The notes beneath the pieces are model-generated. The model was not told the DNA's origin, did no database searches, and was given only the letters and a program-made list of their open reading frames with translations. Source: Amoebidium appalachense (taxonomy: Eukaryota; Protista; Ichthyosporea). Taken from it: a DNA stretch of 64,000 nucleotides. Of this stretch, positions 25,263 to 64,000 are shown piece after piece. Position 1 is the stretch's first letter; each line of letters starts with the position of its first letter. Made by a program: the position numbers and the translations under genes. Where the stretch lies: assembly GCA_963693365.1 (NCBI GenBank), contig CAVNZM010000003.1:2196768-2260767 (forward strand). Direction: 5' to 3'.

Positions 25263-31078
<5,816 letters not shown>

Positions 31079-35600: not shown

Positions 35601-36441
35601 TGCAGTTTTCTTAGTATATCCTATATCACTGTATTGATATCACTGCCATCATGACAGTATATACGGGCCTTTCAGGCTCACCTCAGTTAAATTTGATTCA
35701 GAAGGGAAGGAAGGCCGTTTCCGAAACTTTTAGAAGAAGTTGGCCGTGGTGCAGATACACAACTAACTCAAACTGTGTCAGCCTAGCATCTAGGAGACTC
35801 CATGCTTTGATTCACGTGCCCGTGCTGAAGTGGAGATCCAACACTACTAATGGCTTTGATAATTTGCAGTATTTTTTGGACAAATAAAAGGCATTTAGGT
35901 GCGTTTGTGGTAATATGGATTTATCCGGGTTTTGAGGTAGGTGGACGTGTGTGTACATATGTGTGTATGTGGGTGTGTAGGTCGGTGGGTGGGTGGGTGG
36001 GTGGTGGTGGGGGGAGGGGGGGGGGGGGGGGGGGAGGAAGGGAGGGAGGGGGGAAGGAGGTAGGGGGAGGAAGGGTAAATTCGGCCTATGTGCACGTGTG
36101 TTATGTGCATCAATTGTAAGGGGATGGAGGAGTCTTGGTGAAATAGGGAGGGGGGCCGGGGAGACCTTCCGGAGGGGCAGGGGGCGGGGCGGGGGGGGGG
36201 GGGGGGGGGGGGGGGCGGGGGAGGGCCCGGGGAGGGGGGGGGAGGGGGGGGGGGGGGAGGAGGAGGAGAATGGTTTCGGACTTGCATTACGATTAGACTA
36301 ATAAATATTCTGAGAAGTGTGTTCAATTAAAGCCGTTACACCCTTTTTTCTCCTCACTGAACGGATGCCGTAACCCGTCAATTGGGAGGTTTTTTCAAAG
36401 TACTCTCTGGCAGCTTTTGTTTTTTATTTTATCCTTTTTTT

Positions 36442-36498
<57 letters not shown>

Positions 36499-37195
36499 AT
36501 ATCCGAGGGCAGGATTTGTGCACAGCAAACTTTTGCAATGCAGCCCAATTCGAATGCAGAATCCGTGTGAAACAACCGTAAAATCTCATGTACCGCAAGA
36601 GTATAGTAACCGATTTTCCCCTAATCAAGCCCCACAATCTGAATCAGTCAGAAGAATGCACAATGGCTTGCTATTAAGTGGGTGGCTATTTCAGGCTAGT
36701 ACTGAGCTGGTATGCCTCGTGCAACTATCGTCTAAGACGGTGTGGTAGCCGAGGCCGCTTGAGTTCAGCAAGAATGGTGATAGCGATAGACCACATGAAT
36801 GCAACAAATGTGCTCGGGAAGTTGCAGGCCACCCAAAATCGTAGCAAAAAGTTTTGCAGATGCATTACGCACACCGAATTCGAACGTTTCGATGATTCTT
36901 TCTTGGTAATACGATTTTAGATCTGTGTACTTGAAACGACACTTCAAGAACCCAGTTTACTAGCTTTAGTCAATTCGGTGGTAATGGTAGGCACTATAGC
37001 TTCTAAGAGGTGAACCATCAGGAATACTTTCAAAAAGTTTGAAAGGTCAGATGAAAAAAGCTTAAACAGAAAAAGAGAGAAAAGAGTAAAAAGGGAGCTC
37101 TAATTTTTAGTTTTTGAAGTAGTACGGGGTTTTCTAGCTTTATGCCCCTCCCCCCCCCCCCCCCCTAGTTTTTAAATAATTACGGGTTTTATTTT

Positions 37196-37231
<36 letters not shown>

Positions 37232-37351
37232 CTGCCGCCAAAGAAAAGCTTCGGGGGAAGGGGGAGGGGAGGGGGGGGGGGGGGAGGGGAGTTGCGGGGC
37301 AAAACAAACCCCGTACTTGTTCAAACCCCCCCCCCCCCCCCCGCACACACA

Positions 37352-37436
<85 letters not shown>

Positions 37437-37710
37437 ACACACACACAAACACACACACCGTGCACACACACATACACAAGCCCACACACACTCCGTTCCT
37501 TTCTCTGTCTCCTAACTGCCTGCCACCTGGTCCCATTTCCTCCATCCAGTCTCCTTCCCCTTGTTCTCTTTTTCTATTCCCTTTTTACCCAAATCGACCA
37601 TAAAGTACAATGCCACAGTGTGTTGTGGTACCCCCACCTCCCCTCCCCATCTCCCCCCCTTCCCCCTAAGGCGAGGGATAGCCTCGGTGAAGGAGGGAGG
37701 ACTCGACCCA

Positions 37711-37778
<68 letters not shown>

Positions 37779-38356
37779 GATCCAGGTTTTGCATGTATCA
37801 TCAGGCTATCATCGTAATAGACGTGTGTTCAATTATAACCGTTACACCTTTGTTTCTGTTCACTGACGCCCGCACGCATGCCCTTGCCCGCACACACACA
37901 CACACGTACCCACCCTGCCCACCAAAAAAACGGTGTGAAAAGCTCTTTTGTTTCGGAATCAGGACAGGCATCCTAGGCTGAACTTCACGGTAGGGACCAG
38001 ATGTATGTGGGGACAGACCAAGGGCCTGCTGGAACTGGCTTGCAATAAGCTCCACCCGTGCAATCCACGACATAATGTTATCTTGTGCAGGATTCGACCA
38101 ATCAAATATGCTGGATGTGCTAGGTGTGTTGACTTGTCGGACTCAAATATTCTGAAAAATGTATCCACAACATTTCACCAATTCAATTCGAGGTTACTAA
38201 GCCCGGCATGTCACGATGTGTTCACAATCCGGGGATACTAGTAAAAAAAAACGGAAGATCAGGTTATAGAATCACTTATGCAAACAGACGACTTAAGTGT
38301 TTACAAACACGGAGGATGATGAAGCCAATAAGTGTAAATACTGCAGCATGCCTTCA

Positions 38357-47099: not shown

Positions 47100-49104
47100 A
47101 TTAAGCATCCGTTTTTATTGTGCTATTTGGATAATCTGTATTGATACAGTAAACGTGCCGGTGTATTTAGTCTAAATGAGAACTCTCGAACGGGTTTTTG
47201 CGCTGCTTTCAACGTGCTGTATAATCTTTCAAATGCTTGCCAATATTCCCGGCGTGGTTTCACTTTTATGAATCTTATGACTACGGCGTAGTTCGTCATA
47301 TTTTCTTCTCAGGCCATGCCGACTTGCCTATTTCCTGCCATTTTAAGCTTCAAATTGTCCTACAATCAAGTTGAGAAACTATCTACTCAACAGCGGGGCT
47401 GCTACTTGCATGATTTGGGTGACCACCCACACATGATGTTCGTTGCTTGCTACAGCTGGGCATCTTTGATCACACCTGTGGGTTTTGTGAAATATCCCAC
47501 ATGGACTATATTACTGTGGTCATAAAAGGGTAACTCGTTCATCTCTGCTATATACACAAAGTAAACGTGGCATAGTATGCCCCCTAAGCCCTTCCACTCC
47601 AAGTGAGATCTATGAAATGCCCTTTTTCTTGGCTCGCCACAGTGTGCATCGGCAATTTTGTTTCTGGTGGCCCGAGGCTTTCCTCTTCATAAAAGGTGAT
47701 GGGCCATTCTCACTAGGATAGTCAACTAGTTGCATGGAGGCGGAGAGGGGACGGTTACTCTCTGGGGTGGTTTTTGTGATTGTGTGTGTGTGTGTGAATT
47801 GGGGGGGAAGGGGGGGGGGGGGGGGGGGGGGGGGCCGGAGGGCAGGAAGGGAGGGGAGGGGGGAGGGGGGAGGGGGGGGGGGGGAAGGCTTCATTTGGTT
47901 ATTTTGTTGTTTGAACTTTTGTTATGCCATCGAACTGCTGATTGGATGTGGGCCATAAAGGGTAGGTATATAAGCCTGAGAAAGTGATGGAAAAATGACT
48001 TCATCGAACATGGTGATACGTCCCTTCCCCCCCCATCCCCCCTTCCCCACCTCCCTCCATCCCCATTCCCTCCCACACTGTCACGCACGCGCACACAAGC
48101 ACACACACACACGTACACGGACACGCTCACACACACATACACACACATGCGCGCATGTGCACACGCGTGCGAGAGTTCAGATTGACGGACATGAGCACAC
48201 ATGGAGCACCACTGTCCGTAGCTACCTCCTTCTTTCGCCTTTTGCCCTTCCTTCATCCTTTAATTTCCAGGCATCATCATCAGGCTCAGTGGACCACAAC
48301 GGTTTGCCTTCCCTATTGTCTTCAATTTAAGATTTTCTGGCTTGTCGCCTCCAAACATTCTATTGTTGAACTTCCTAACCGTAACGGGTTAAAAGGGGAG
48401 CCGAATGGTTGGGTCACGGTTGGGTGCGTAGGTGGGTGGATGGGTAGGGTGGTGGTGCCGGGGGGGGGGGGGGGGGGGGGGGGGGGGAGGGGGGTCGTCA
48501 TCTGAACCAGAAAACAGCTGGAGGTAACCAACCATCTATCGAAGATCATTGAAGTCTGAGTGGTAAGGACGGAAAATCAATCTGGCTGTCTCACGTTATA
48601 TGTGTTCATGTTGGAAGCATGGAAACTGAGATCTGACTGACTAAAACAAACTAAACTGCAGACTCTGAGCAAATGGTGCTTCAAATGAAATACAACTTGA
48701 AACCTTCATATTTCACAGAATATGATTATTATGCAAATTATTCGATTTGTTTTTCAATCTATAACCCCCCCCCCCCCCCATCCCCTCCCCCCTCTTCCCC
48801 TCCCTCCCTGTCCCTTCCCCCCCTTCCCCCCCCCCCCTCCCCCTGCCCCCCCTCCCCTCCCCCCCCCTCCCCCCCCCCCCCCCCACCACCACCACCACCA
48901 CCACCACTGGGCCACCACCATCACCACCACCGCAATCATGTGCTTTGTTCCCCCCCCCCCCTTCCCCCCTTCCCATGACACACACATCCTCACGGAAAAA
49001 TGCCTTGAACAACTGAAACGGATTGAAAATTGGACCCGATTAAATTAAAAGTAACATTGTCCCTGTGCGTTTTTTTCTGCATATACGGCTTGGTGTGAGC
49101 TCAG

Positions 49105-49163
<59 letters not shown>

Positions 49164-49870
49164 ACCCCCACCCCCCCCACCCCGGCCTCCCATTTAGGCT
49201 ATATATCTGTACTGATACAATGATCTTCGGTGTTTTTTGGAATTGGTATAAATGGGAACATTCGAACGAGCAGGCTTTCGCGCTTTCTTTAACGTGCTGA
49301 ATAATGTGTCAGATACACCTCAATATTCTCGGCTTGGTTTCTTTTTTTTTTTTTTTTTAACGTTACTACTACGGCGCAGGTTGCCAGCAATTCTGCTCGG
49401 CAATGGCATGCCGAATGCCCCTTTTTTCTGCCATTTTGCGCTTCAAATTGTCCCACAATCAAAGTCGAGAAACCATCTGCTTAATAATAGAGGGGCTACT
49501 GTTTGCATGATTTGGGTGACCACCCACACATGATGCATGCTGCTTGCTGCAGCTCGGAAAGGAAATCGTCATAGACATGAAATGTCCCACGTTGGTGTCT
49601 ATCGAGGATCATAAAAGGGTCACCCATACATCTCTGCTGAATACACAAAGTTAACATGGCATAGTTTGTCCCCTGCATCTATGCCATCCCAAGTGACTCG
49701 GATGTATGCCATGCCCTTTCTTTGCCCCTCCAATGTGTATTTCTGTTTCTGATGGCCCGAATATCTCTGCTCCGTAAAAGGTGATGGGCCATTCTTCTAA
49801 AAATATTCACAGTGTTGCATTGGTTTGGGGGGGGGGGGGGGGGGGGGGGGTGGTTACTCGACTGGGGTGG

Positions 49871-49967
<97 letters not shown>

Positions 49968-50317
49968 CTGGCGGATGGGGGGTTGGGGATGGGGGTGGGG
50001 GGTAAAGATAAGTTTCTTTTGGTGATCGATTGTGCGGCCTGAAAATTTGTTGTGTGAATTGCTGGTTGGATGTGGGCCACTGGGTAGGTAGAAGGTAATG
50101 AGCTGCACAGCAAAAAAAGTGATATCATCTATTTACAGGTTGGTGATACGTCTCTTCCCCCCTCCGCACCCCTCATACACACACTCTCAAGAGCGTACAC
50201 ACACCTAACACACAAAAAAAGGTACGCACATACACGTGCACACGAGTACACATGCACACCCACACCCACGCACCACACGCCCAAGCAAAAACGTGTGCAA
50301 TGCCATGCGCTTGCACG

Positions 50318-50386
<69 letters not shown>

Positions 50387-52566
50387 CAGACACACACAGA
50401 CACACACACACACGCACACACACGCACACACACAAACCCCCCCACACACAACACGCACGCACACAGCCCGCGCGCACGCACACGCGCACGCACACACAGT
50501 GCAGGTGTGCGCGCACGTGCACGCACGCACGCACAGGTACATACACACACATGCGCACATATTCACGGGCATAAACACACACGAAGCACCTTTGTCCCAC
50601 CACCTCCTCTCACTTTGCCCTTCCTTCTTCCTTTTCCAGGCATTCTCTTGGACCACAACTGTTTGCCTGCCCTACTGTCCTTCTTTTCTAAAAATTTTCC
50701 TCTTCACCCACACACATTCCTTTTTTTCAATTGTTTCCTAACTGCAAACACGTTATTGATGGGGCCTGATGGTTGGGTCACGCTTGGGTGGGTCGGTAGG
50801 TGGATGCGTAGGGTGGTGGTGGTGGCGGTGGGTGGGTGGGTGGGTTGGTGGGTGGATGCGCAGGGTGGTGGGGGAGGTGGGGGGAAGGGGGGGGGGGGGT
50901 CCATCTGCAGCAGAAAACAGCTGTAGGTAAACATCCAATATCGAAGGTGATGACTGAGGGGTGAGGACGGAACATCGATCTGACTGCTTTATACGTTCAT
51001 GGTGAAAGGCTAAAATTGAGATCTTTTTGGCTAAAGAGAAACTAAGCTGCAGACTCTGAGCCCATGGCGTTTTAGCTGAAACACAACAGACACCTCATAA
51101 TCCCACAGAAAAATAAATATCAATTGTTTGCCAATCTTTAACCTCAACCCCCCCCCCCCCCCCCCCTCCCCATCTCCCGCCCCGAGACACACACATGTGC
51201 ACGGGAAAAGAGATGTCAATATCGATTTTAGCCGGATTGGGGAAAGGACTTCACTTGAGATTTAACAGCATTAGTGCTAGAAATCTGTTTTGATCACTGT
51301 CGGTCTATTTGGAAGTAGTCTTATTGAGAACACGATCTTTGTCCTGTTTTCAACGTGCTGAATATGTTATCGTTCAAACACTCGATGTCCCCACCATCGT
51401 TTTTCACTTTATGCATATTACTGCTATGGCGTAGGTCGCCATCAATTCTGCTCAGGCCATGCCGAATGGGCATTCATTTCTGCCATTTTGCATTTCAAAA
51501 CGTCCCACAATCAAAGTCGAGAAATCATCTGCTCAACATTTTTGGGGCTACTGCTTGCATGATTTGGGTGACCATCCACACATGATGCCTGCTGCTTGCT
51601 GCAGCTTGGCATCTGAAATTCCAGCCTGTTTCGTGAAATTTATTGCTACGGTCATGAAAGGGTCACTCATACATCTCTGCTGAATTCGTACATACACAAA
51701 GTAAACGTGGCATAGTAGGTCCTCCGCATCCATGTCCATCCCAAGTGAGACCTATGCATTGCCCTTTCTTTGCCCCTCCACTGTCTAGTTTTGCTTCTGA
51801 TGATCCAAGTCTCTCTGCTCCATAAAAGGTGATGGGCCATTCTACCCGAATTATCCATTTAGTTGCATTGGGAAGGGGGGGGGGGGGGGGGGGGGGGGGG
51901 GGGAGGGGTATAGGGAGGCTCCTTTTGGTGGTTGCTTTGCCTGCCTTTTGGCTACTCGAATTACATATTGTATGTGAGTCACAGGGTACATGCGCCTCAG
52001 AGGGTGATGAGCTGCAAAGCAAAAGAAACTCGGTGACCCTCCGCCGGGGGGGGGAGGGAGGGGGGAGGGGGGGGGGGGGGGGAGAGTGGGGGGCCGGGGG
52101 GAAGGGGGGGGGGGGGGAGGGGGAGGGGGGGAGGGGGGAGGGGTCATCTGCTCGCGCAAAAAAACAGCTGGGAGGTGATCTGAAAAGCAGACTCAGTAAG
52201 TGGCGCTTTAGTGCTAGTTGAAACTCAAAGGAGCCTTCATACTCAACAGAAAAATAACTATGCTTTTTTGGCAATCTTTAACCTCGAGCCCCTCCCCCCC
52301 CCCCCCCCCCCCCTGCACCCCCCCCATCTTCCTTCTCGTCCCCCCCCCCCAACCACCACCACAACCATGTGCCTTGTCCCCCCCCCCCCCCCTCCCCCCC
52401 CGCCCCTGCCCCCCCCCTCCCTCCCCTCTCCCCCGCACATAAATGCACGGAAAAAAGACAGTAACGTATTGTGAATATGACTCCAATAGGAAGTAGCGTT
52501 GTCCTTTTGTTATTTTTCCGAAACCATTTAGTTGGAACGGGGGTGGTTACTCTCTGAGGTGGTGTT

Positions 52567-52611
<45 letters not shown>

Positions 52612-53098
52612 TGTGATGGTGGTGGGGGAGGGGGGAGGGGGGTAAAGACAGGCTCCTTTTGGTTATTGTGCCACCTCATTTTGTTATGTGAACTGCTGAT
52701 TGGATGATTGGATGTGATATAAAGAGGTAGATGCGCTTGAGAAGGTGATGAGCTGCACAGCAAAAAAAACTCGGTGATTTTATTAATATTTATTGACAAG
52801 TTAGTCATACGTCCCCCCCCCCCCCCCCCCCCCTCCCCTTTCCCCCCCCCCCCCCCCCCCCCCCCCCTCCTCCGAGACCCCTCCCACAACACATTCTCGA
52901 ACACACACACGACCTACGAACCCACAAATGCACGCACATACACTTACACACAAGTACAAACTCAATCACACACAAGGCTTCGCCCACACACAGCACACCC
53001 ACAAGCAAACAGACGCACGTGCACACACACACGCACGACCAAGCACACACACAAACGAGCAAGCACACACAAACACACGCACACACACACAGACACAT

Positions 53099-53181
<83 letters not shown>

Positions 53182-53685
53182 CTGGGCATATTCGCGCGCG
53201 TGAACACACATGCTGCAACCCTTCCCCACCTCCTCCTCTCTCTTCTTGCCCTTCCTTCATCCTTTCCAGGCGTTCCCTTGGACCACAACGGTTTGCCTTC
53301 CCTAATTTCCATTTTTCTAAAATAGTTATCTATTCACCTCCACACATTCCCTTTTTGCTTCCTAACTGAAAATGTTTTTGTCATGTTGCTAACCTCCCCC
53401 CCCCCCCCTCCCCCCCCGCTCACCCCCCTCCCCCTCCTCCCCCCCCCCCCTCCCCCCCCCCGCATCCTCCCACCCACTCTCCCCCCCCCCCTCTCTACTC
53501 CCCCCCCCCCCCCCCCCTTCTCCCCCCGGCTCACACATACACACGGAAAAAGGCCAACATGAAACGGATTGTGATTTGGAATCCAATTGAAAGTAAGACT
53601 GTCACAGCTGTGCGTTTTTTTTGCGTATACGGCGTGGTGTGAGCCCCCCCCCCCACCTCCTCCACCCCCTCCTCCACCCCCTCCG

Positions 53686-53724
<39 letters not shown>

Positions 53725-56700
53725 GCCCCTCCCATTGAGCATCAAGTATCCGATAGGTACGTTTGAGAATGAGATCAACTCCACAGCAAAAAGCTCGGCG
53801 ATTTCATCTAACAATTTCTAATTTCATCTAATAACCGTTGTCGGTGATCCATCTATTAACAGGTTGGTGGTACGTCCCCCCTCCCCCCCCCCCTCCCCCC
53901 CCCTCCCCCCCCCCCCCCCCCCCGCCCCCCCGCACCGGGTCCCCATCTCCACTCCCCCCTCAATGGCCATCCTCTCCCACACACCCATTCACGAGCACCC
54001 ACAAACCCTGTGTCCGCAAATGCACAATTGCAAAGCCACACGCACGCACGCGCATACACGCATATTTGTGGGTGTGAACGCACATGGAGCAGCCCTGTCC
54101 CCACCTCCTCCTCTTTTTTCTTGCCTTTTCTTCATTTTTTTCCAGGCATTTTCAGTGGACCACAACGGTTTGACCTCCCTATTGTCTTCAAATTTAACAC
54201 GTTTTTTGGCTTGTCACCTCGAGGCTTTCCTTAATTCCTTCCGAACAATCAAAAAGGCTAACGTGGGGGCCGGGTGGTTAATGCACGGGTGGGTGAGTGG
54301 GTGGGTGGTGGTGATGGGTGGGGGAGGAGGGGGGGGGGGGGGGGGGGGGTTCGTCTGCAGCAGAAAACAGCTGGAGGTAACCCGGCCATTTATCGAAGGT
54401 GATAACTGGGTAATGAGGACGGAAGTTGATCTGGCTGTCGCGTTATAATGTTCATGTTGGTCCAAAACTGAGTTTTGATTGGCTAAAAACAAAGTTAACT
54501 GCAGACTCTGACCCGCTGGCGCTTTTTGAAACACTGTGACAACGAAGCCTTCGCATTTCACAGAAATATAATTATGCAATTTTTGCCAACTTGCTAACCT
54601 CAACCCCCCCCCCCCCCCCCCAACACACACACACACGCACCCCAAACCACCACCACAACCATGTGCTTTGTCCCCCCCCTCCCCCCCCCCCCCCCCTCCC
54701 CCCGGACTCACACACACACACCGTGAGGGAAAAAAAGGAAACAACAAACTGATTGTGATTTCGACTCCAATTGAAAGTAAGATTGTCTCTGTGCCTTTTT
54801 TCTGCATTTACGGCGTGGTGTGAGCCCTTCCCCCCTCCCCCTGTCACCCCCCCCCCCCCCCCCCCCCTCCCCGTTCTCCCTACACCCCCCTCCCCCCCCC
54901 CCTCCCCCCGGTCACCCTCTCCCATTAGGCAACAAGTATCATTAGTGCTAAATATTTGTATTGATACAGAGACTGTCGGTGTACTTGAAATTAGTCTCAA
55001 TCAGACCACTCGAATTGGCTCTTGCTTTAATGTGCTGAATAATATTTCAAATTACATTTCGGCATCCCTGGTGTGGTTTCACTTTTACGAGCCAGGCTGA
55101 CCTAAACATTTTTCTGCCATTTTGTGTTTCAAATTGTCCCACAATCAAAGTCGAGAAACCAACTACCGTAGCACTCCGGGAGCTACTTCATGCATGATTT
55201 GGGTGACCACCCACACATGATGCCTGCTGCTTGCTAGCTGCAGTTCGAGATCTCTCATAGCCATGATCGTGAAATAACCACGTGGATTTATTGCTGTGGG
55301 CATGACAAGGTCATCCATTTATCTCTGCTGAATCCACAAGAATGTCGCATAGTATATCCCCTGCATCCCTGCCACCCCAAGTGAGATTCTATCTATGCAA
55401 TGCCCCTTCTTTGCCCTTCCAAAGAGCACATTTCTGTTTCTGATGGTCGAAGTATCTCTGCTATATAAAAGGTGATGGGCCCTTCTCCCTTCAATGATCA
55501 ATTTAGTTCTGCATATACGGTTTGGTATGCCCACCTTCCCGGCCCTCCCCCCCCCCCCCCCCCCTCCCCCCCCCCCCTCCCCCTTCCGCCCCCTCATCCT
55601 ATTACATAAGCATCAAGTATCATTAGGCATTTTTGAATTTGAAATGGGAGGTGGGCCGTAGTAAGTACCACCATCACCAACATTAAGTTTGTACTAAGTC
55701 TTCTTCCCTTCGTTTTAACCAGCAATTCGAATTTCCACAAAGTTAGGGCATATCTATCATGCATAACATGTCGCTGGGAGTGTGCGTCTGCAAATATATG
55801 CCGTGTAGACGTGGGACCCTGTGTGTATGTGTCCGTAAGGTGGGTGGGCATTCGGAACTGCTAATCATTGTTGTGGCCTGACAGTGTGCAAGTAAACGTT
55901 GTGCCACATGTGCAAGCTGTGTGGACGCAATGCGCTTTGCATGTGGAAAATTACGATGCATTTCACGTTTGTGCTAGAGAAAAGGGTGTGTGCGCACGTG
56001 TGGGTGTCACTCTGCATGTATGTCTCCGTGCGTGTTTGCCTGCGTGTGTGTTTGTGTGCATATGTGTGCATGAGTTGTGAGTGTGTGTGTGTGTCAGTGA
56101 TTGAGAGAGCTCCCAGCGCATGTGCCTTCCGTGGCATATGTGTCTGAATTGCGATAATATGTGTGTGTGTGTGTTTCTGTTGTTCAGTTGCAAATGAAGA
56201 GCATGCATGATGGCGCATGATGCGTGGATGAAATTGCGTCAGACAAATAACCGGGGGGGAGGGAGGGGAGGGGGGGGGGGGGGGGGGGGATAGATAAAGA
56301 GCGAAAAGAGGGCGAGGTGGTGGTGGTGGTGTGATGGTGGTGGTGGTGGGGGGGGTGGGGGGGGAGGGGGATAAGGGGAAGCAGCTAGAGAGGCCGAAAA
56401 AGGAATTCAGAATGTGTGCCACGTGTGTGTGCGCGCATCATTATGTGACACCATAGAGAATAGCATATTACCCTACGGCAGTCCGATACAGTGAGCGTAT
56501 TGGAGAGCGTGCGCGCAAGGTGTGTGCGCCTGCGTGTGCAAGGGTGCTTTACTGTACATCGTCGAGTCTCAGAAATCAGTGGTCATGAGCAACCAGTCAT
56601 TGCGGTCTCGGTATAAGATCTGAAAGGGTGTAAAGAGGGGGAGGCCCCCACGGGCCAGCGATCGTTTCCCGGGGATGGGGGGGGGGGGGGGGGGGGGGGG

Positions 56701-57042
56701 GATGTTTAGGCAGCCTAGCTAGCTAGTAAGCAGGTCCAGTTTGACGCAGGGCCTGATAATTGATACCAATTAGTGGATGTAGAGATGGTGCCAATGCCAA
56801 TACTTTCAAGTTCGTATCCAATATACAGTTAGTAATATATCCTAATTAGTCATATTTGGGTAGCCCCCTCCTCCCCCCTCCCCAGCCAGCGGAGGGGTGG
56901 TTATTCCCCCCCCCCTCCCCCCCCCCCCCCAACTTACTACTACCCCCCTCTCCGTTTCAAAATCAAAAAAGCCTTAATTAGTGCTACCTATTGCACACGT
57001 ATCTGTATGTATTGGTGATACAGTGAATGTCGGTATATTTTT
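47100..57042. repeat. Degenerate modular tandem array (~2.1 kb unit; about 6 full or partial copies plus one stub), possibly decayed copies of a spliced gene
   Basis: Shared blocks: CATGATTTGGGTGACCA.CCACACATGATG at ~47409, 49506, 51558, 55193; GACCACAAC.GTTTG at ~48292, 50651, 53281, 54158; AAAACAGCTG at ~48511, 50914, 52161, 54364; GAGCTGCA.AGCAAAA at ~50100, 52009, 52750. Confidence 0.85.
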
Positions 57043-57362
57043 GGGGGGGTGCGGCATGCCAGGAGCTACTACTAGAGAGAAGGGGGGGTATGATTGGAGG
57101 GGGGGGTGTTCAGCTAACCTTATATGGATAAAGCAAAGTTACAAGGATTCAAGCCATTGGTTGGGCAAGACCCCTTTTGCCGAATATGGATAACAGATCA
57201 TACACTGCTGTAGGCGGCGGTCAGGAATTGGCGCGCTCTTTACTGGTCACAACCAGTCCGGGAAGGCCATGAGCAGCATTGCCGAGCACACTGGAATACG
57301 GGAATGTTTGCGGTAACGTAGTCGCACTAGGGGGGCAGGGGGCCAGGCCCCAAGTGTTTAAA

Positions 57363-58708
57363 ATGAAGCCAGGCTGCCCTAAGGGCACAACACAGCGCCC
57401 TGGGCATAAAACAGGCGGAGCTAGGGAGGGAGCTGGGCGCAAAAAAAAAGATGCTGCATTTGTTCAGCCTTTAGCGAACTTTGCAGGTTTTGGGACGGCA
57501 AACAAAGCTGTTTTGCAGGAACTAAACGTAAACGTACAACCCGAACAGCCCCCTCTATCTAAGGCCGCCGACATAAGGGCCCGTGTAGTTGAGGCAGGTA
57601 GCGTCCATTCGTTACCAAGAGAAATGGATCGGGCCCCTGCTCCACACCCACCAGACATACAGGTGCAACCCGACGAGGAACCTTTGCTAAATGCAGCAGC
57701 AGATGCGTACCGGGTAGACGAGGATGAAGGGGAGGAAGAGGGAGAAGATAATACGGACGGGGATGACGGTGGAGAGGAGTTTTCTGACGCGGCGGGCGAA
57801 ACAATCAAGTCGCACCTGCACACAGTGAAAGAGAGTCTCAAAGATGAGAAGACGCCTGTGGGGTGGCATCTTCCACCTCCCATTATAGGCTTTAAATTTG
57901 GGGGCGATCCAGCGCCTTTCTACAAGGTGGTGCCGTGCCCCTTCGATGATCACTACGTGGACCCCCACAACCACCCCAACCCACACCGTACTTCTCGCAA
58001 TGGGTTCATGAGCAACCCCGTAGGACGGCGTGTTATCGACTTTGACAGCTGCTACTACATTATCACGGCCCGGTACTTTTGTGACACATGCAAAAAAAAC
58101 TTTGCCGGCACAAACCCCCAGACAATTAAACGCCTTCCACTCTTCATGCGTGATCAGTTTCCGGCCTACCTTAGCCACCGCAGTGGGCTCGACCTAAAGG
58201 TGGTAACATTGTTGCGTGCACTGGCAGACAAAGGTGTGGGCCCAAACGCCTTTGCCACCCTCCTCTCGGAGCTCCACAAGCAGCGATACGACGAGCAGCG
58301 GCTCCTGTATTACTCGAGGGCGCTGCATTGGACCAAGTATGAACTCAAAAAGCGTAACGATTTCCGCCCCCACGACCAGCGCCTGACAGAACTTCCCCCA
58401 GAGGAGCAGGCGGCTAAGTTCTCGGCGTTTGGTGACAAAAATGGTTACGCTGGACATGTGCCTTCAGGCAAGTGTGCACTGCATTTTGGGTGTGTAAATG
58501 GTCCCCATTGTTTTGTATGCACGTGCTTGGGCATTTTTTGGGTTGGCTTGGTAGGGTTTTGTTTTATTATTTTTTATTTTTTTTTTAGGGGGGGGGGGGG
58601 ACTTGGAAATGGGTTTTGGAAGTGTGGTCAATAAGTTTCTATTATGGTGGTGGTGGATGTGTGGTGGTGGATGTGCGCCTGTGAGTGTGCGTGTACTTGT
58701 GGGTCCGT

Positions 58709-58739
<31 letters not shown>

Positions 58740-59007
58740 GGGGGGGGGGAGGGGGGAGGGGGGACATGGTGATGGATTAGGTGGTGGTGGTGGCAATCAG
58801 TCATGGTGGTGGTGGTGGTGGTGGTGGTGGTGGGGGGGGGGGGGGGGGGGGGGGGGAGGGCAGAGGGATCATCAGAGGGGTGAAAGCATAACGGTCCATG
58901 TACCAGTGAGTGTGCTTGGGAAATCGTGGAGAACTGTTATGCCTGAAATTAGATGGTGGGTGTGCGCATGTGTGTCTGTGTGTGTTGGGGGAAAGGAGGT
59001 GGAGAGG

Positions 59008-59059
<52 letters not shown>

Positions 59060-59984
59060 GGGCACATGGTGGTAGACTGGATCTTGGTGGCGGTACTTAA
59101 TGGTTATTATAGTAGTGGCAGGAGGGTGTGGGGGGAAGGGCAAACGGACGTGCAGGGGACAAACTGCAGATGGGGCACAAAGGGGAAAGAAGGTGAAAGT
59201 TGGTGCAATGACTTGGAGGGTTTGCGCGCGCCGGGAGGCGGGGGGAGGGGGGGGGGGGGGGGGGGGAGGGGGGGGGGGGGGGGGCAAACGGCCGGAGATG
59301 GGTGTGTAGCGTTTTTGAGATGGGAAAAGCCATACAGACTTACGAAAATACAGAGAGGTGAGATGAACACGAGGGACTAGAGGGAATGGGGGGGATGGTC
59401 CTGATGGGAGGGTGGTGGAGTTCTAACAGTACTTGGGGTTCAGGCAAATACCTGAGTGCCGTGTATACTGAGTTCAGCGACCGCACGGCAAAGTACCAGA
59501 GCCTGGACACGCAGCTCAAGCCCGTAAACAACGTGCTCAAGGCCGACCACACCTTCCAAATTGGGAAGCTCACCGGCATCAATGGGGAGCCTCTGTACCG
59601 AGGCCTATGGACTTGTGTAAACGAGCTTGGCGGTGTGTGGTCCCTCCTCTTCTCCCCCCTCCCCCCACTCTCCCCCAGGCCCCCTCTCCCCCCTCCCCCC
59701 CCCCCCACACACCCCCACCCCCCCCCCCCCCCCACACACACACACACACACGCCCCCCCCCCTCCCCCCCCCCCCCCCCCCTCCCCCCTCTAGGGCCTTT
59801 AAATCTCTTAGGCTCCACATTTAATGAGGTGGCACACTGTGAGTAGAGGTTTGTAGTATGTGGGTTTTGGGGACAATTCTTGCCCTGTCGAGCAAAAACT
59901 AGGAAGCTCCAGATATGTGTGTATGTGTTTTTGCTGGGTAGAGATTGGGGTGGGCTGGGGTGGAGCTTTCTTTTGGCGGGGAAT

Positions 59985-60021
<37 letters not shown>

Positions 60022-61539
60022 GGGGGGGGGGGGGGGGGGGCAAGCTTCTGCCAAGCAGAATGGGAGTAGGGGCCAGTGATTGCAAGGGATGCAGGGGGGG
60101 GGGGGGGGGGGGGGGGAGAGACACCACCGTCGGGGTTGAAGGTAGAGAGGGCAAGAGGCCCGGGGTGGGGTGGGGTGGGGGGGGGGGGGGGGGACAGTAG
60201 GTGCCATATGGAGGGCTGTCCCATGGTTTGGGGGGAGGGGGAGTGGGGAAGGATCGTGGGCACATGGGTTTGGGGGGAAGGCAGAGAGGGGGAAAGGATT
60301 GTGATCACAAGGGTTTAGGGGGAGGAGGGGGGAAGGATTGTAGGTACATGGGTTTAGGGGGGGAGGGGGGGGGGAAGATTTTGGGGGAAAGGGAGGCCTG
60401 GGGAAAGTATGTGGGCACATGGGTTTGGGGGGAAGGAGGGGGAAGGGTTTTGGGGGAGAGGGAGGGGAAAGTATGTGGGCACATGGGTTTGGGGGGAGGG
60501 AGGGGGAAAGGATTGTGTGGGCACTGAAGTCTCGTGAAGGGCCATGTGGTAAGGGAAGCTAGAACATGCATGGCCGCTCGGAGATGCCCTCTCACACAGT
60601 GCGGCACCCCAGAGATCCGGGCGCAGGCATTTACACGGGACTGCAGCCACCAGGAGATTGAGCCCGTGATCCAGCGCATCTCTGCCACCACGGCGGCGCT
60701 CAACAGCAAGGGCCCGGCCTTCTTCTACACAGATCGGTGCTGCCAAGACCGGGCGTTTGTTGAGCGCATGTTTCCAACCCTAGCCCGGCCAAAATGCCCC
60801 GTCCGTCTGAACGAGGCTGCGCTGGTAAGCGTGACGGACGGTCTGCCTGGGCTGGAGCTGCCGGCCAACTACCCTAAGCCGGTGTACACCGACTGCCAGG
60901 GGGCGGTGGTGGCTACAGCGGCCATTCGTGCCGACCTGGAGGGGCAGCAGCACCGCGTGGTGGGGCTGGACTGCGAGTGGGTCTATCGGGTGGGCCAGGC
61001 GCGGTCCAAGGTTTGCACGCTGCAGATTGCCACCGCACGGGCCGTGTACATCTTCCACTTGGCACGCATGGGCCCCAACCACAGCCCGCCCGCGCGGCTG
61101 GTGGACGAGCTGATTGCGCTGCTTAGGGACCCCAGCATCATCAAGGTGGGCAAGCAGATCGGCACGGACTCGGCCCACCTCAACAAGGACTACGGCACCC
61201 CTGTGGCCAGCTATCTGGAGCTGGGCCGGTTCTGCTATGCCCGTGCAGCTATCACCTCTGCGGCCCGGGGCTTGGCCGACATCACTGCCCAGGTCATAGG
61301 CAAGAAGCTGCCCAAGCCGGCACTTGTTCGATGCTCCAACTGGCACGAGCCGCTATCAGAGGTGCAGGCCACCTACGCTGCCCTTGATGCATATGCGTCC
61401 CTGCAGGTCTACTCGGCCGTGGTCGATAGGCCAAACCTGTCAGGTGTGTATCCCACCTGCTTTTTGCCCCAGTGCTTATGTGCTTATGCCAGATATAGAA
61501 AGATTGTGGGCCCCCCAGAGGGAGAGGGGAGGGGGAGGG

Positions 61540-61576
<37 letters not shown>

Positions 61577-61673
61577 GGCTGACCACATGGGCCAGTGTTC
61601 CAGTTGTGTTATGCTGGGTGTCGGGTGGCTATCAAAGGAGGGGGTGATTGGTGGTGGTGGTGGTGGTGGTGGT

Positions 61674-61706
<33 letters not shown>

Positions 61707-62750
61707 CTATAGCACTGTTAACACGTGCAAGTGCCACACAAGCTGGGCACTGGGAGAGGGGGGGGGGGGAGGGAGAAGGGGGGGGGGGGGGGGGGGGAAG
61801 GGGGTTGCTAAGGAATATGCATTTGATTTTTGTGGAGCGAAGAGAAAAACGTTGGTGCTGTGGCTTTTTGGCTGAGTTTTTTGCTTCCCTCTATGACATG
61901 CAGCGCGGCTTCATGCAAAGGCACTCGGTGAAGGGGTTGAGATTGTGCCCCGGCGGGGCCCACATGCTGCAGCAGCCACCGGGGTGGTGCTGGCTGTGCA
62001 GCCGGAGCGCTGGGGGGGCATGAAGGTGGGCAAGAAGCATGCAGTGGTGCGGGTGGATCAGGTGCTGTCGCCGGCCATGCAGGTGCCCTTTGGCCCCGAC
62101 AAGGGCAAGACCCTGGGAGAGCTGGGCCCGCCGCCCTTTGAGCTGATGGTGCACCTGCAGTGGCTACGGCCCATTCAGCCCCCACCGGACCCAGGTGCCG
62201 AGGTGCCGGTGGTCCCTGACCCAGCCCCTCCCCCTGCCAGTCCTCCCCCTGCCGAGCAGCAGCAACCCCTTGCCGGCCCACAGGCACCCCCCCAGGACCC
62301 CCAGGCAGCCCCGGGGGGCCTTGAGGCAGCCCCAGGGGGACCCGAGGCAGCTCCCAGAGAGGGCATGTTGGGCCAGGCACCGCCTGGGGAGGTGGTGTGG
62401 CAGACTGTGCTGAATGACGCCTTCCACTCCATTGCAAACACGGCGGACGGCACGTACAAGTCACACCCCCGCAGGGCTGAGTACGCACGCGCACTCAGCG
62501 AGGCAATATTTGTGTGGAATGAAGAGGATTACGGACATGTGAAGGTGCCCCCCCCCCTCCCCCCCCCCCCCAAAATAAAAAATAAAAAATAAAAATAAAA
62601 AAAACGGCAACAACAACATGCGTGACTGACGCGCACACACACATACACTCGTTAGCACACACTCACCATTCCACCCACAACCATGCACACCTTCGACAAA
62701 ACTTCTGAGGGAAGAGAGAGAGCCTGAGCCTCAGAGAGAGGGGGGGGGAA

Positions 62751-62797
<47 letters not shown>

Positions 62798-63383
62798 GGG
62801 GGGGGAGGAGAGTGGGGGTTATTCATATGCCTAGAGAGAAATAATGTAGGGTTGTGGGGGGAAATAGCCACATGCATTTTTTACTTGTGTTGGGGGAGAA
62901 GATGGGGGGGGTGGAGGGGAGGGGTCCTACAATAACGGCAGGTATCAAAGTCTACCAAACCCAAATTGCAGTGTGCGTAGTAAATTAATATTGGCATCCT
63001 GCCTCACAGGGGGTGCTGGAGCAGAAGGGCATCGACATTGAAACCGAGCTCAAGGGCGGCGACCTGAGCTACTTCATGGAGCGCATCCGGCGGGTTATTC
63101 CCGACCCATACACGCTGGTCTCGCGGCTGGTGGAGTTCAAAAACACCTACAAGGATGTGCCGCCCGGACCGGATGGCAAGCCTCTGTTCAAGAAGGATGG
63201 CTTTGAAAGACTCGAGGCAACATCCCCCCCCCCCCCCCCCTCCCCCTGCAGGCGCCCAACAACTCCACCACCACAGAAAAGATTCTTCGCTTATTTGTCA
63301 TCCTTGGTTCATCTGCACACACACGCACACCCTAGCCTCCCCCCCCCCCCCCCCCCCCCCCCCCCCAAACATACACACACACA

Positions 63384-63438
<55 letters not shown>

Positions 63439-63510
63439 CCCGCACGGCCCTTGCTGCCTAGCCAGTTGTTTTTTGCCTTTCCCTGCTCGTTTTTTTCCTT
63501 AGCAACCCCA

Positions 63511-63557
<47 letters not shown>

Positions 63558-64000
63558 ACACATACACACACACTACCACCACCACCACCCACCCATCTCT
63601 CTGATGTTTGCTTGTGCCCCCACAGTCGCTGCTCGAACACGCCCAAAATGGCTGTCTGTCGGACCCCCCCGGCCTGCCCCTCTACTACGAGACCACTGCC
63701 GACGCAGATGGGCTCATGCGCTACCGCTGCATCCGGGGCACCAACGAGGTGGAGGGGGCAGTGCACAACCCCCTGGCCACCCACTTTGGGGCCACACGCA
63801 TGTCGCTGCGCCTGCTGGACGCCACCATGTCCAATAGGCGCCACCGCCACAACCTGCGTGCACACTACCGCAACCGCCTGGGCCAGGCATCGGGGCCCCC
63901 CCACTACAGCCCCTGGATTGTTGACGACATGGAGGCACTGGCGCTGATGCTGTACGGCCATCACCTCGACCCCCAGTGGGTACCCGTAGGCTGCTACAAG
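57363..64000 (+). CDS. DDE-type transposase (DUF6729-like N-terminal domain) with an embedded 3'-5' exonuclease. Exons: 57363-58467, 59444-59632, 60613-61443, 61904-62544, 63010-63216, 63626->64000 (3' incomplete)
   Basis: The spliced frame is open throughout. Motifs in order: basic GGAREGAGRKKK; RRVIDFDSCYYIITARYFCDTC...RLPLFMRDQFPAYLSHRSGLD...ELHKQRY; LKADHTF (D, 59545); CVNELG|EIR; YTDRCC (D, 60732); exonuclease; LNDAFH (DxxH, 62416); GCLSDPPGLPLY...YRCIRGTNEVEGAVH (E, ~63752). The family call is from recall of similar fungal and animal TE proteins. Confidence 0.8.
60220..60523. repeat. G-rich minisatellite in transposase intron 2
   Basis: GT(G/A)GG(C/T)ACATGGGTTT(G/A)GGGG recurs at ~60256, 60340, 60411 and 60476. 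Confidence 0.8.
60880..61430 (+). other. DnaQ-superfamily DEDDy 3'-5' exonuclease domain (WRN/EXD2/Mut-7-like) within transposase exon 3
   Basis: ExoI VVGLDCEW (60957-60980), CTLQIA, LLRDPSIIKVG, ExoII IGTDSAHL, RGLADI, RCSNW...LS..Q, ExoIII YAALDAY (61374-61394). Confidence 0.9.

What the first reader, a model, noticed from the sequence alone, without database searches (positions are those of the whole stretch)
57363..64000. Spliced DDE transposase carrying an intact WRN-like 3'-5' exonuclease inside its catalytic core
Seen: joining six exons gives one uninterrupted frame. The order is candidate catalytic D (LKADHTF), D (YTDRCC), then a full DEDDy exonuclease with all ExoI/II/III acidic residues and the Tyr, a short globular segment, a Pro-rich linker, DxxH (NDAFH) and the RGTNxxEG glutamate. 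Established: D..D..(C/D)xxH..E with a large insertion after the second D is the architecture of MULE/hAT/P/Kolobok transposases, and WRN/EXD2/Mut-7 exonucleases trim DNA or RNA 3' ends. Inference: this is a poorly characterised transposon family whose single polypeptide combines strand transfer with end trimming. It might process donor or target ends, or degrade silencing small RNAs. I recall similar hypothetical proteins in fungi but no mechanistic description.
Basis: partly seen in the sequence, partly recalled or inferred. Interest (0 to 1): 0.8.

Follow-up and report, generated by a model that had tools for sequence, protein, structure and literature searches.

The report
Dada transposon with built-in exonuclease
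This is the left part of a multicopy, spliced jumping gene, likely from the protist Amoebidium, whose cut-and-join enzyme carries a predicted DNA-trimming domain inside its core, a design published in 2013 for the Dada transposon group, so it is a new member of a known kind.

Summary
Six exons give a stop-free 1,116-aa frame, and all five introns are joined in contigs of runs guessed to be RNA. The order is D403, D472, DEDDy exonuclease, DxxH, E1034. The predicted fold matches WRN exonuclease (Z 27.9) and, across the insertion, the IS256-family transposase ISCth4 (Z 13.7). The design is not new: Kojima and Jurka 2013 describe this exonuclease at this position in Dada transposases of Laccaria and Ectocarpus. 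Our motifs match the published Dada profile (12 of 13 residues at one block). The element starts near 57044, is multicopy, and sits in a degenerate tandem array, not in an RNA gene. This copy lacks 15 residues that other copies have. One extra result comes from distant relatives (26-36% identity). They have 22-24-bp inverted ends and two 8-bp duplications, and 4 of 25 right ends abut another end across 6-7 bp, the same numbers as ISCth4. A seven-member clade keeps a catalytically altered exonuclease, so trimming is likely accessory. Verdict: new member of a known kind, with a testable IS256-like mechanism.

The parts
47134..57043 (.). Host flank: degenerate tandem array of roughly 2-kb units (68-79% alike) with simple repeats; the element interrupts one unit
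   Evidence: Self-BLAST. 4 of 5 array units align to the flank and stop at 57040-57044; only 2 of the 5 beat all 200 shuffles
57036..57043 (+). Predicted left copy of an 8-bp target site duplication; untested because the right end lies outside the window
   Evidence: Inference from the 8-bp duplications of relatives
57044..57065 (+). Left end of the element (about 57043-57045) and a likely terminal inverted repeat
   Evidence: Contig depth steps from 0-100 to over 2,700 in X5. Contigs of X14 and X15 leave the window here into other flanks. Best of 16 neighbouring positions on the relatives' end profile, but weak: rank 614 of about 128,000
57363..58467 (+). Exon 1: acidic low-complexity N-terminus, zinc-finger-like C192-x4-H197...C240-x2-C243 (57936-58091), DUF6729 (about 58026-58343)
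57925..57928 (+). In-frame loss of 15 residues in this copy, in a stretch that is conserved in a relative
   Evidence: Joint with 47 other letters in X8, X14 and X1, and matching loose ends in X5; P0009; alignment with P0173
59444..59632 (+). Exon 2: first catalytic D403 (59545) and RNase H strands
   Evidence: D in 26 of 27 homolog rows that reach it
60613..61443 (+). Exon 3: second catalytic D472 (60732), then the WRN-like DEDDy exonuclease (about 60939-61418; D551, E553, D617, Y686, D690)
   Evidence: D472 in 33 of 33 rows
61904..62544 (+). Exon 4: small beta-strand domain (about 61930-62169), Pro-rich disordered linker, DxxH (D880 at 62416, H883 at 62425)
   Evidence: D and H in 52 of 52 rows
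63010..63216 (+). Exon 5: helical insertion domain; ends at a GC donor
63626..64000 (+). Exon 6 (cut by the window end): block matching the Dada profile and catalytic E1034 (63752). About 400 more residues, with a C-terminal Cys finger, lie beyond the window in P0009
   Evidence: E in 53 of 53 rows

Best explanation
This is the left end and first six exons of a multicopy, spliced DNA transposon of the exonuclease-bearing Dada group, whose one protein is predicted to cut and join the element's ends with its D403-D472-E1034 site while the inserted WRN-like domain likely trims DNA 3' ends made during the jump as an accessory step. Shown: the gene, its splicing, the conserved residues, other copies with other flanks, and the match to the Dada profile. 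Predicted: the RNase H fold closing around the insertion. Inferred from relatives: short inverted ends, an 8-bp staggered insertion, and an IS256-like ability of one end to attack 6-7 bp beside another bound end. Inferred from families: DNA rather than RNA as the exonuclease substrate. This copy is probably impaired by its 15-residue loss and would depend on intact copies.
For: The triad and DxxH are nearly invariant in 53 homologs. ISCth4 aligns over 249 residues spanning model positions 8-723, across the exonuclease (Z 13.7, rmsd 4.0). Published Dada HMM (PMC5751038 supplement, compared by eye): 12 of 13 consensus letters at states 238-250, 4 of 10 around D1, 3 of 7 around D2; D1-D2 spacing is 70 states in the HMM, 69 here and 68 in Dada-U6_DR. 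The same exonuclease position is described for Dada-1_LB, Dada-2_LB and Dada-1_ES. 29 of 30 metagenome loci that hold both flanking blocks have the exonuclease between them. There is a depth step, and other flanks join at 57043-57044. The exonuclease has all five catalytic residues in 27 of 38 scorable homologs; a 7-row clade (99/94) keeps the fold with altered residues.
Against: No direct search against Repbase Dada proteins or the whole Dada HMM was possible; 3 of about 12 parts of the HMM were read, and not the DxxH or E states. The published finger patterns are matched only as variants (CHCC for CCCC, CCCC for CCHC). The element's right end, TSD and copy number are unseen (no genome held; contig depth is no copy number). 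The relatives with inverted ends are only 26-36% identical to this protein, and only 1 of 7 two-ended loci shows a TSD on its own contig. No activity was measured.
Confidence: 0.85

Rival explanations
1. The transposase is as above, but the exonuclease acts on RNA, trimming or destroying host small RNAs to shield the element from silencing.
For: DEDDy relatives EXD2, Nibbler/Mut-7 and RNase D act on RNA (established knowledge) and score Z 14.5-20.4. The transposase survives loss of the catalytic residues in one clade.
Against: WRN is the best match by a wide margin (Z 27.9, 32% identity). The domain is held in cis inside the catalytic core in 29 of 30 loci, which suits a transpososome substrate better than a diffusible one (inference).
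Confidence: 0.08
2. The exonuclease fold serves mainly as a DNA-end-binding or scaffold module, and its catalysis is marginal.
For: 11 of 38 scorable homologs have altered catalytic residues, and the altered rows with a D2-to-DxxH span still hit the exonuclease profile (E 1e-9 or better). The change arose about 4 times on the tree.
Against: 27 of 38 very divergent homologs keep all five residues, as do most loci with inverted ends. Some altered rows may be decayed copies or misaligned.
Confidence: 0.2
3. It is a domesticated or ordinary single-copy host gene.
For: It is spliced with host-like introns and transcribed. No RNA-gene target and no visible end pair in the window.
Against: There is a sharp depth step and other flanks at the same boundary, it interrupts an array unit, and its relatives have transposon ends.
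Confidence: 0.03
4. The TIR-bearing, non-targeted, exonuclease-bearing elements form a superfamily of their own, apart from the target-specific Dada of fish.
For: The relatives have 22-24-bp inverted ends, 8-bp duplications and varied flanks, with no tRNA in 59 of 59 loci and no Rfam hit in the 18 scanned. Published Dada have no TIRs, 6-7-bp TSDs and RNA-gene targets.
Against: The 2013 paper already files the exonuclease-bearing families under Dada. The sequence blocks match the Dada profile, and the D1-D2 region finds mostly chordate clusters in the Atlas (0.94-0.97).
Confidence: 0.1

Closest known systems
Dada superfamily, exonuclease-bearing families Dada-1_LB, Dada-2_LB (Laccaria bicolor) and Dada-1_ES / Dada-1_Ec32 (Ectocarpus); PMC3706591, PMC12477816
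   Same: DDE with DxxH; DEDDy WRN-like exonuclease between the second D and DxxH; introns; zinc-finger-like motifs at both ends; no RNA-gene target known
   Different: The host is likely an ichthyosporean, a group absent from the 2013 table. Finger ligands vary. The left end is mapped here, whereas the Ectocarpus entry lists its TSD as '?'. This copy lacks 15 aa.
Target-specific Dada lineages (Dada-U6, -U1, -tA, -tL, -5S and others); PMC3706591, PMC8869645
   Same: Transposase motifs and D1-D2 spacing
   Different: No exonuclease is reported for them; they insert in snRNA, tRNA or 5S genes with 6-7-bp TSDs and lack TIRs. This element sits in a tandem array, and its relatives have TIRs and 8-bp TSDs.
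ISCth4 / IS256 family (PDB 6xg8; PMC7780238)
   Same: Best transposase fold match (Z 13.7). ISCth4 has an 8-bp TSD and 6-8-bp spacers between joined ends, as seen in this element's relatives.
   Different: Prokaryotic, small, no exonuclease, 11% identity; copy-out/paste-in is shown for ISCth4 and only inferred here.
KolobokD (PMC9587614)
   Same: A C/DxxH-group transposon that encodes a DnaQ-type 3'-5' exonuclease proposed to degrade intermediates
   Different: Its exonuclease is DEDDh rather than DEDDy, and Kolobok has TTAA-specific 4-bp TSDs.
WRN exonuclease domain (PDB 2e6l, 2fbx)
   Same: Fold (Z 27.9, rmsd 1.7) and DEDDy residues
   Different: No helicase here; the domain is an insert in a transposase.

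Membership tests
Dada superfamily (exonuclease-bearing group) | Catalytic D, D, E with DxxH after the second D | tested here: met
   fold match across the insertion
Dada superfamily (exonuclease-bearing group) | Sequence similarity to Repbase Dada transposases | tested here: met
   By eye against the published Dada HMM consensus: 12 of 13, 4 of 10 and 3 of 7 letters at three blocks, and D1-D2 spacing. No full profile search was run; DxxH and E states were not read.
Dada superfamily (exonuclease-bearing group) | DEDDy exonuclease between the second D and DxxH with its catalytic residues | tested here: met
   compared with Fig. S1 text
Dada superfamily (exonuclease-bearing group) | N-terminal CCCC zinc finger | tested here: inconclusive
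   C-x4-H...C-x2-C here: the spacing fits but His stands for the second Cys; relative P0173 has four Cys
Dada superfamily (exonuclease-bearing group) | C-terminal CCHC zinc finger | tested here: inconclusive
   Outside the window; P0009 has C-x2-C-x6-C-x8-C
Dada superfamily (exonuclease-bearing group) | Repeated in the genome with defined ends | tested here: met
   Left end only: depth step and other flanks at 57043-57044
Target-specific Dada lineages | Insertion inside a tRNA, snRNA or 5S gene | tested here: not met
   No tRNA or Rfam hit in the window; the flank is an array unit; flanks differ between copies. A short half-gene could be missed. Not filed under these lineages.
Target-specific Dada lineages | 6-7-bp TSD and no terminal inverted repeats | not testable with these tools
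   Right end outside the window, no genome held. Relatives have TIRs and 8-bp TSDs.
MULE / IS256 | Pfam MULE or Transposase_mut domain | tested here: inconclusive
   No hit on six separate exons at E 0.1, but the core is split by introns and the insert; the fold resembles ISCth4. Works like, not filed.
KDZ (Kyakuja-Dileera-Zisupton) | KDZ transposase and CxC Pfam domains | tested here: inconclusive
   No hit on six separate exons; the family's domain make-up is recalled, not from a call
KolobokD | DEDDh-type exonuclease | tested here: not met
   Tyr686 makes it DEDDy; KolobokD is DEDDh

The most novel reading that the evidence does not exclude
Exonuclease-bearing Dada elements are eukaryotic transposons that keep the IS256-type asymmetric step: one end attacks 6-7 bp beside a second bound end, making circle or tandem junctions, before an 8-bp staggered insertion, and the exonuclease resolves the leftover donor 3' ends. 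The RNA-gene targeting of fish Dada would then be end mimicry, the target gene posing as the recipient end. That would also explain the published oddities: a subterminal motif repeated in the target at a fixed distance, 8-bp-looking TSDs with 6-bp tandem spacers, and carried-over 6-bp flanks.
Probability: 0.25. Interest if true: 0.75.

Novelty: new member of a known kind. Interest (0 to 1): 0.36.

Why it matters
The headline architecture has been in print since 2013, so the finding itself mainly extends the group to a likely ichthyosporean host and supplies a young, transcribed family with a full-length transcript. The value lies in the side result. I found no report of ends or TSDs for exonuclease-bearing Dada in the papers seen (searches; the Ectocarpus row lists TSD '?'; Repbase and subscription papers were not searchable). 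The relatives' ends, 8-bp duplications and 6-7-bp junctions give a direct test of how Dada transposases choose targets and of what a built-in exonuclease does. Dada has been proposed as a targeted gene-delivery tool.

Tried and rejected
No genome is held for the window, so copies, the right end and the TSD could not be counted. Word-indexed homolog searches found little: the element itself and 3 WRN helicases, itself only, itself and 2 Amoeboaphelidium proteins; the HMMER library found 793 at E 0.001. The left-end DNA pattern found 0 matches in metagenome contigs and 1 in the window, itself. No relative in viral contigs: 13 pattern matches, 0 confirmed. Inverted-repeat search of 50000-64000 returned poly-G/poly-C pairs in the 25 longest of 2,567. 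Rfam at E 10 over 56000-57400 gave 3 chance-level hits. No listed sequencing run is on record as RNA. Two end-profile scores of 16.9 elsewhere in the window (17024, 23213) are about what 128,000 positions give by chance, and no second transposase copy is in the window. The flank of X14 loosely resembles a tRNA D-arm, but only 30 letters are visible, so this was not pursued. Three short exonuclease motifs from the 2013 Fig. S1 matched none of 167 fetched proteins, so the Laccaria and Ectocarpus proteins themselves were not in hand. Foldseek listed only exonucleases and polymerase exonuclease domains in its shown rows; hAT, P and Kolobok structures are not in the top 50 of the wide search, which excludes nothing. 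The 2013 protein alignment (.fa supplement) could not be read. A 7-bp cross-match between different families (L006/L002) was taken as chance.
Full report
Observation. The splicing is not an artefact of picking frames: all 5 of 5 introns appear as joints in contigs of run X14 and 4 of 5 in X8 (one sample, only guessed to be RNA). The protein collection holds an 18-member cluster whose named members are Amoebidium parasiticum transcriptome products, with a 1,538-aa full form, P0009. The host is therefore likely an Amoebidium species; no genome is held for the window. Pfam on the six exons gives DUF6729 and DNA_pol_A_exo1 only above cut-off.

The protein. An HMMER search with exon 6 found 793 relatives at E 0.001, of which the best 150 were listed. 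Of 20 looked up, those with organism names are mushrooms, a mucoralean, a chytrid, an aphelid and Plasmodiophora. I aligned 53 of the longer ones with P0001. The first D is kept in 26 of 27 rows that reach it, the second in 33 of 33, DxxH in 52 of 52 and E in 53 of 53. The AlphaFold model (mean pLDDT 72, pTM 0.55) matches WRN exonuclease best (Z 27.9, rmsd 1.7, 32% identity). Its only transposase match in the top 50 is ISCth4 of the IS256 family, 249 residues aligned from model position 8 to 723, on both sides of the insertion (Z 13.7, rmsd 4.0). I could not measure the D-D-E distances in the model; convergence is inferred from that alignment.

The element. Contig depth in run X5 rises from 0-100 to over 2,700 at 57033-57053 and stays high; X1 shows a similar rise. 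Depth is no copy number, but contigs of X14 (at 57044) and X15 (at 57043) leave the window there into other sequence. Four of five units of the upstream tandem array align to the flank and stop at 57040-57044, two of them above all 200 shuffles. So the left end is about 57044 and the copy interrupts an array unit. No tRNA or Rfam family lies in the window. The window copy lacks 15 residues at 57925-57928 that other copies carry and that are conserved in P0173; it is probably impaired, or the assembly is wrong there.

What is known. Kojima and Jurka 2013 (PMC3706591; parts 1-3 of 4 of the text and supplements S1 and S3 read) state that Dada transposons of Laccaria and Ectocarpus encode a DEDDy exonuclease between the second D and DxxH with all catalytic residues, and that it likely processes cleaved 3' ends. 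A 2025 Ectocarpus paper (PMC12477816; passages and a supplement row) repeats this and lists the TSD as unknown. I compared our motifs by eye with the Dada HMM in the supplement of PMC5751038 (passages and 3 supplement parts): 12 of 13 consensus letters agree at states 238-250, 4 of 10 around D1 and 3 of 7 around D2, and the D1-D2 spacing is 70 states against 69 here and 68 in Dada-U6_DR. The D1-D2 region finds mostly chordate clusters in the Atlas, one with DUF6729 in 11% of members. I file it under exonuclease-bearing Dada, not under the target-specific lineages (PMC8869645; part 1 of 5, passages and the first supplement part). KolobokD is a parallel case with a DEDDh enzyme (PMC9587614, passages). 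The Amoebidium genome paper does not mention Dada in its main text (PMC11244446, passages; supplements not seen). PMC4455052 and PMC13565253 were seen as passages only and add nothing on ends.

Relatives' ends. A scan of metagenome contigs gave 59 loci; many belong to a few families and are not independent. 29 of 30 with both flanking blocks hold the exonuclease between them. Copy-to-copy boundaries reveal 22-24-bp imperfect inverted ends and different flanks in each copy. A profile seeded on these ends finds 14 left-type and 25 right ends in 27 of 59 loci. Eight-base flank matches occur in 2 of 350 pairs: within L004, and between the 99%-identical L039 and L037. Against this, 6 of 7 two-ended contigs show no duplication of their own, which may reflect chimeric assembly or real absence. 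Four of 25 right ends abut another end across 6-7 bp. No tRNA was found in 59 of 59 loci and no Rfam family in 18 scanned. ISCth4 has 8-bp TSDs and junction spacers of 6-8 bp, with 6 the most efficient (PMC7780238, passages). The window's left end fits the relatives' profile only weakly (rank 614 of about 128,000), and these relatives are 26-36% identical to P0009, so transfer to this element is inference. Two earlier AI notes agree (e1-7152242, e1-7271285); they are not independent support.

Mechanism. Shown: gene, splicing, residues, other copies. Predicted: RNase H core around the insert. Inferred: end binding by the finger and DUF6729 region, strand transfer with an 8-bp stagger, and cis trimming of DNA 3' ends by the exonuclease. 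That step is likely accessory: 27 of 38 scorable homologs keep all five residues (15 rows with gaps were set aside), 11 do not, and 7 of those form one clade (99/94). Fish Dada are not reported to carry the domain. The boldest reading is that the group keeps the IS256-type attack beside a second bound end. This fits the 6-7-bp junctions and the published Dada oddities (a subterminal motif repeated in the target, 8-bp-looking TSDs with 6-bp tandem spacers, replaced 6-bp flanks). A plain cut-and-paste element with a liking for sites next to existing ends would give the same junctions, and L052 cannot be a single-element circle.

Verdict. Observation confirmed; interpretation right in substance but already published. 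New member of a known kind, interest 0.36; novel case probability 0.25, interest 0.75 if true.

Noticed in passing
L004:6392-11613; L039:1032 with L037:3916; L002, L006, L015, L020, L040: Metagenome relatives are 4.5-6.1-kb elements with 22-24-bp imperfect inverted ends. There is an exact 8-bp duplication in L004 and one shared between L039 and L037; 6 of 7 two-ended contigs show none on their own.
   Followed up: yes
L021:4430-4437, L029:2091-2099, L041:3917-3924, L052:1575-1582: A right end abuts another element end across 6, 7, 6 and 6 bp: head-to-tail of one family in L041, tail-to-tail with a related family in L052.
   Followed up: partly
P0036, P0058, P0088, P0116, P0123, P0139, P0153: A well-supported clade in which the exonuclease catalytic residues are replaced; the five rows scored still hit the exonuclease profile.
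   Followed up: partly
window 47134-55508: Degenerate tandem array of roughly 2-kb units, 68-79% alike, mixed with CA, poly-C and poly-G tracts; no Rfam or tRNA hit; nature unknown.
   Followed up: partly
window 61930-62169: A confidently modelled small beta-strand domain follows the exonuclease; it has no Pfam hit and was not folded or searched alone.
   Followed up: no
L056: The one locus of 30 with both flanking blocks and no exonuclease between them: an exonuclease-free relative.
   Followed up: no
window 58468-59443 and 63217-63625: Two of the five introns use GC donors, both confirmed by joints.
   Followed up: yes
window 27309-27642 and 36195-37866: Two further local repeats of about 75-79% identity in the self-comparison.
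   Followed up: no
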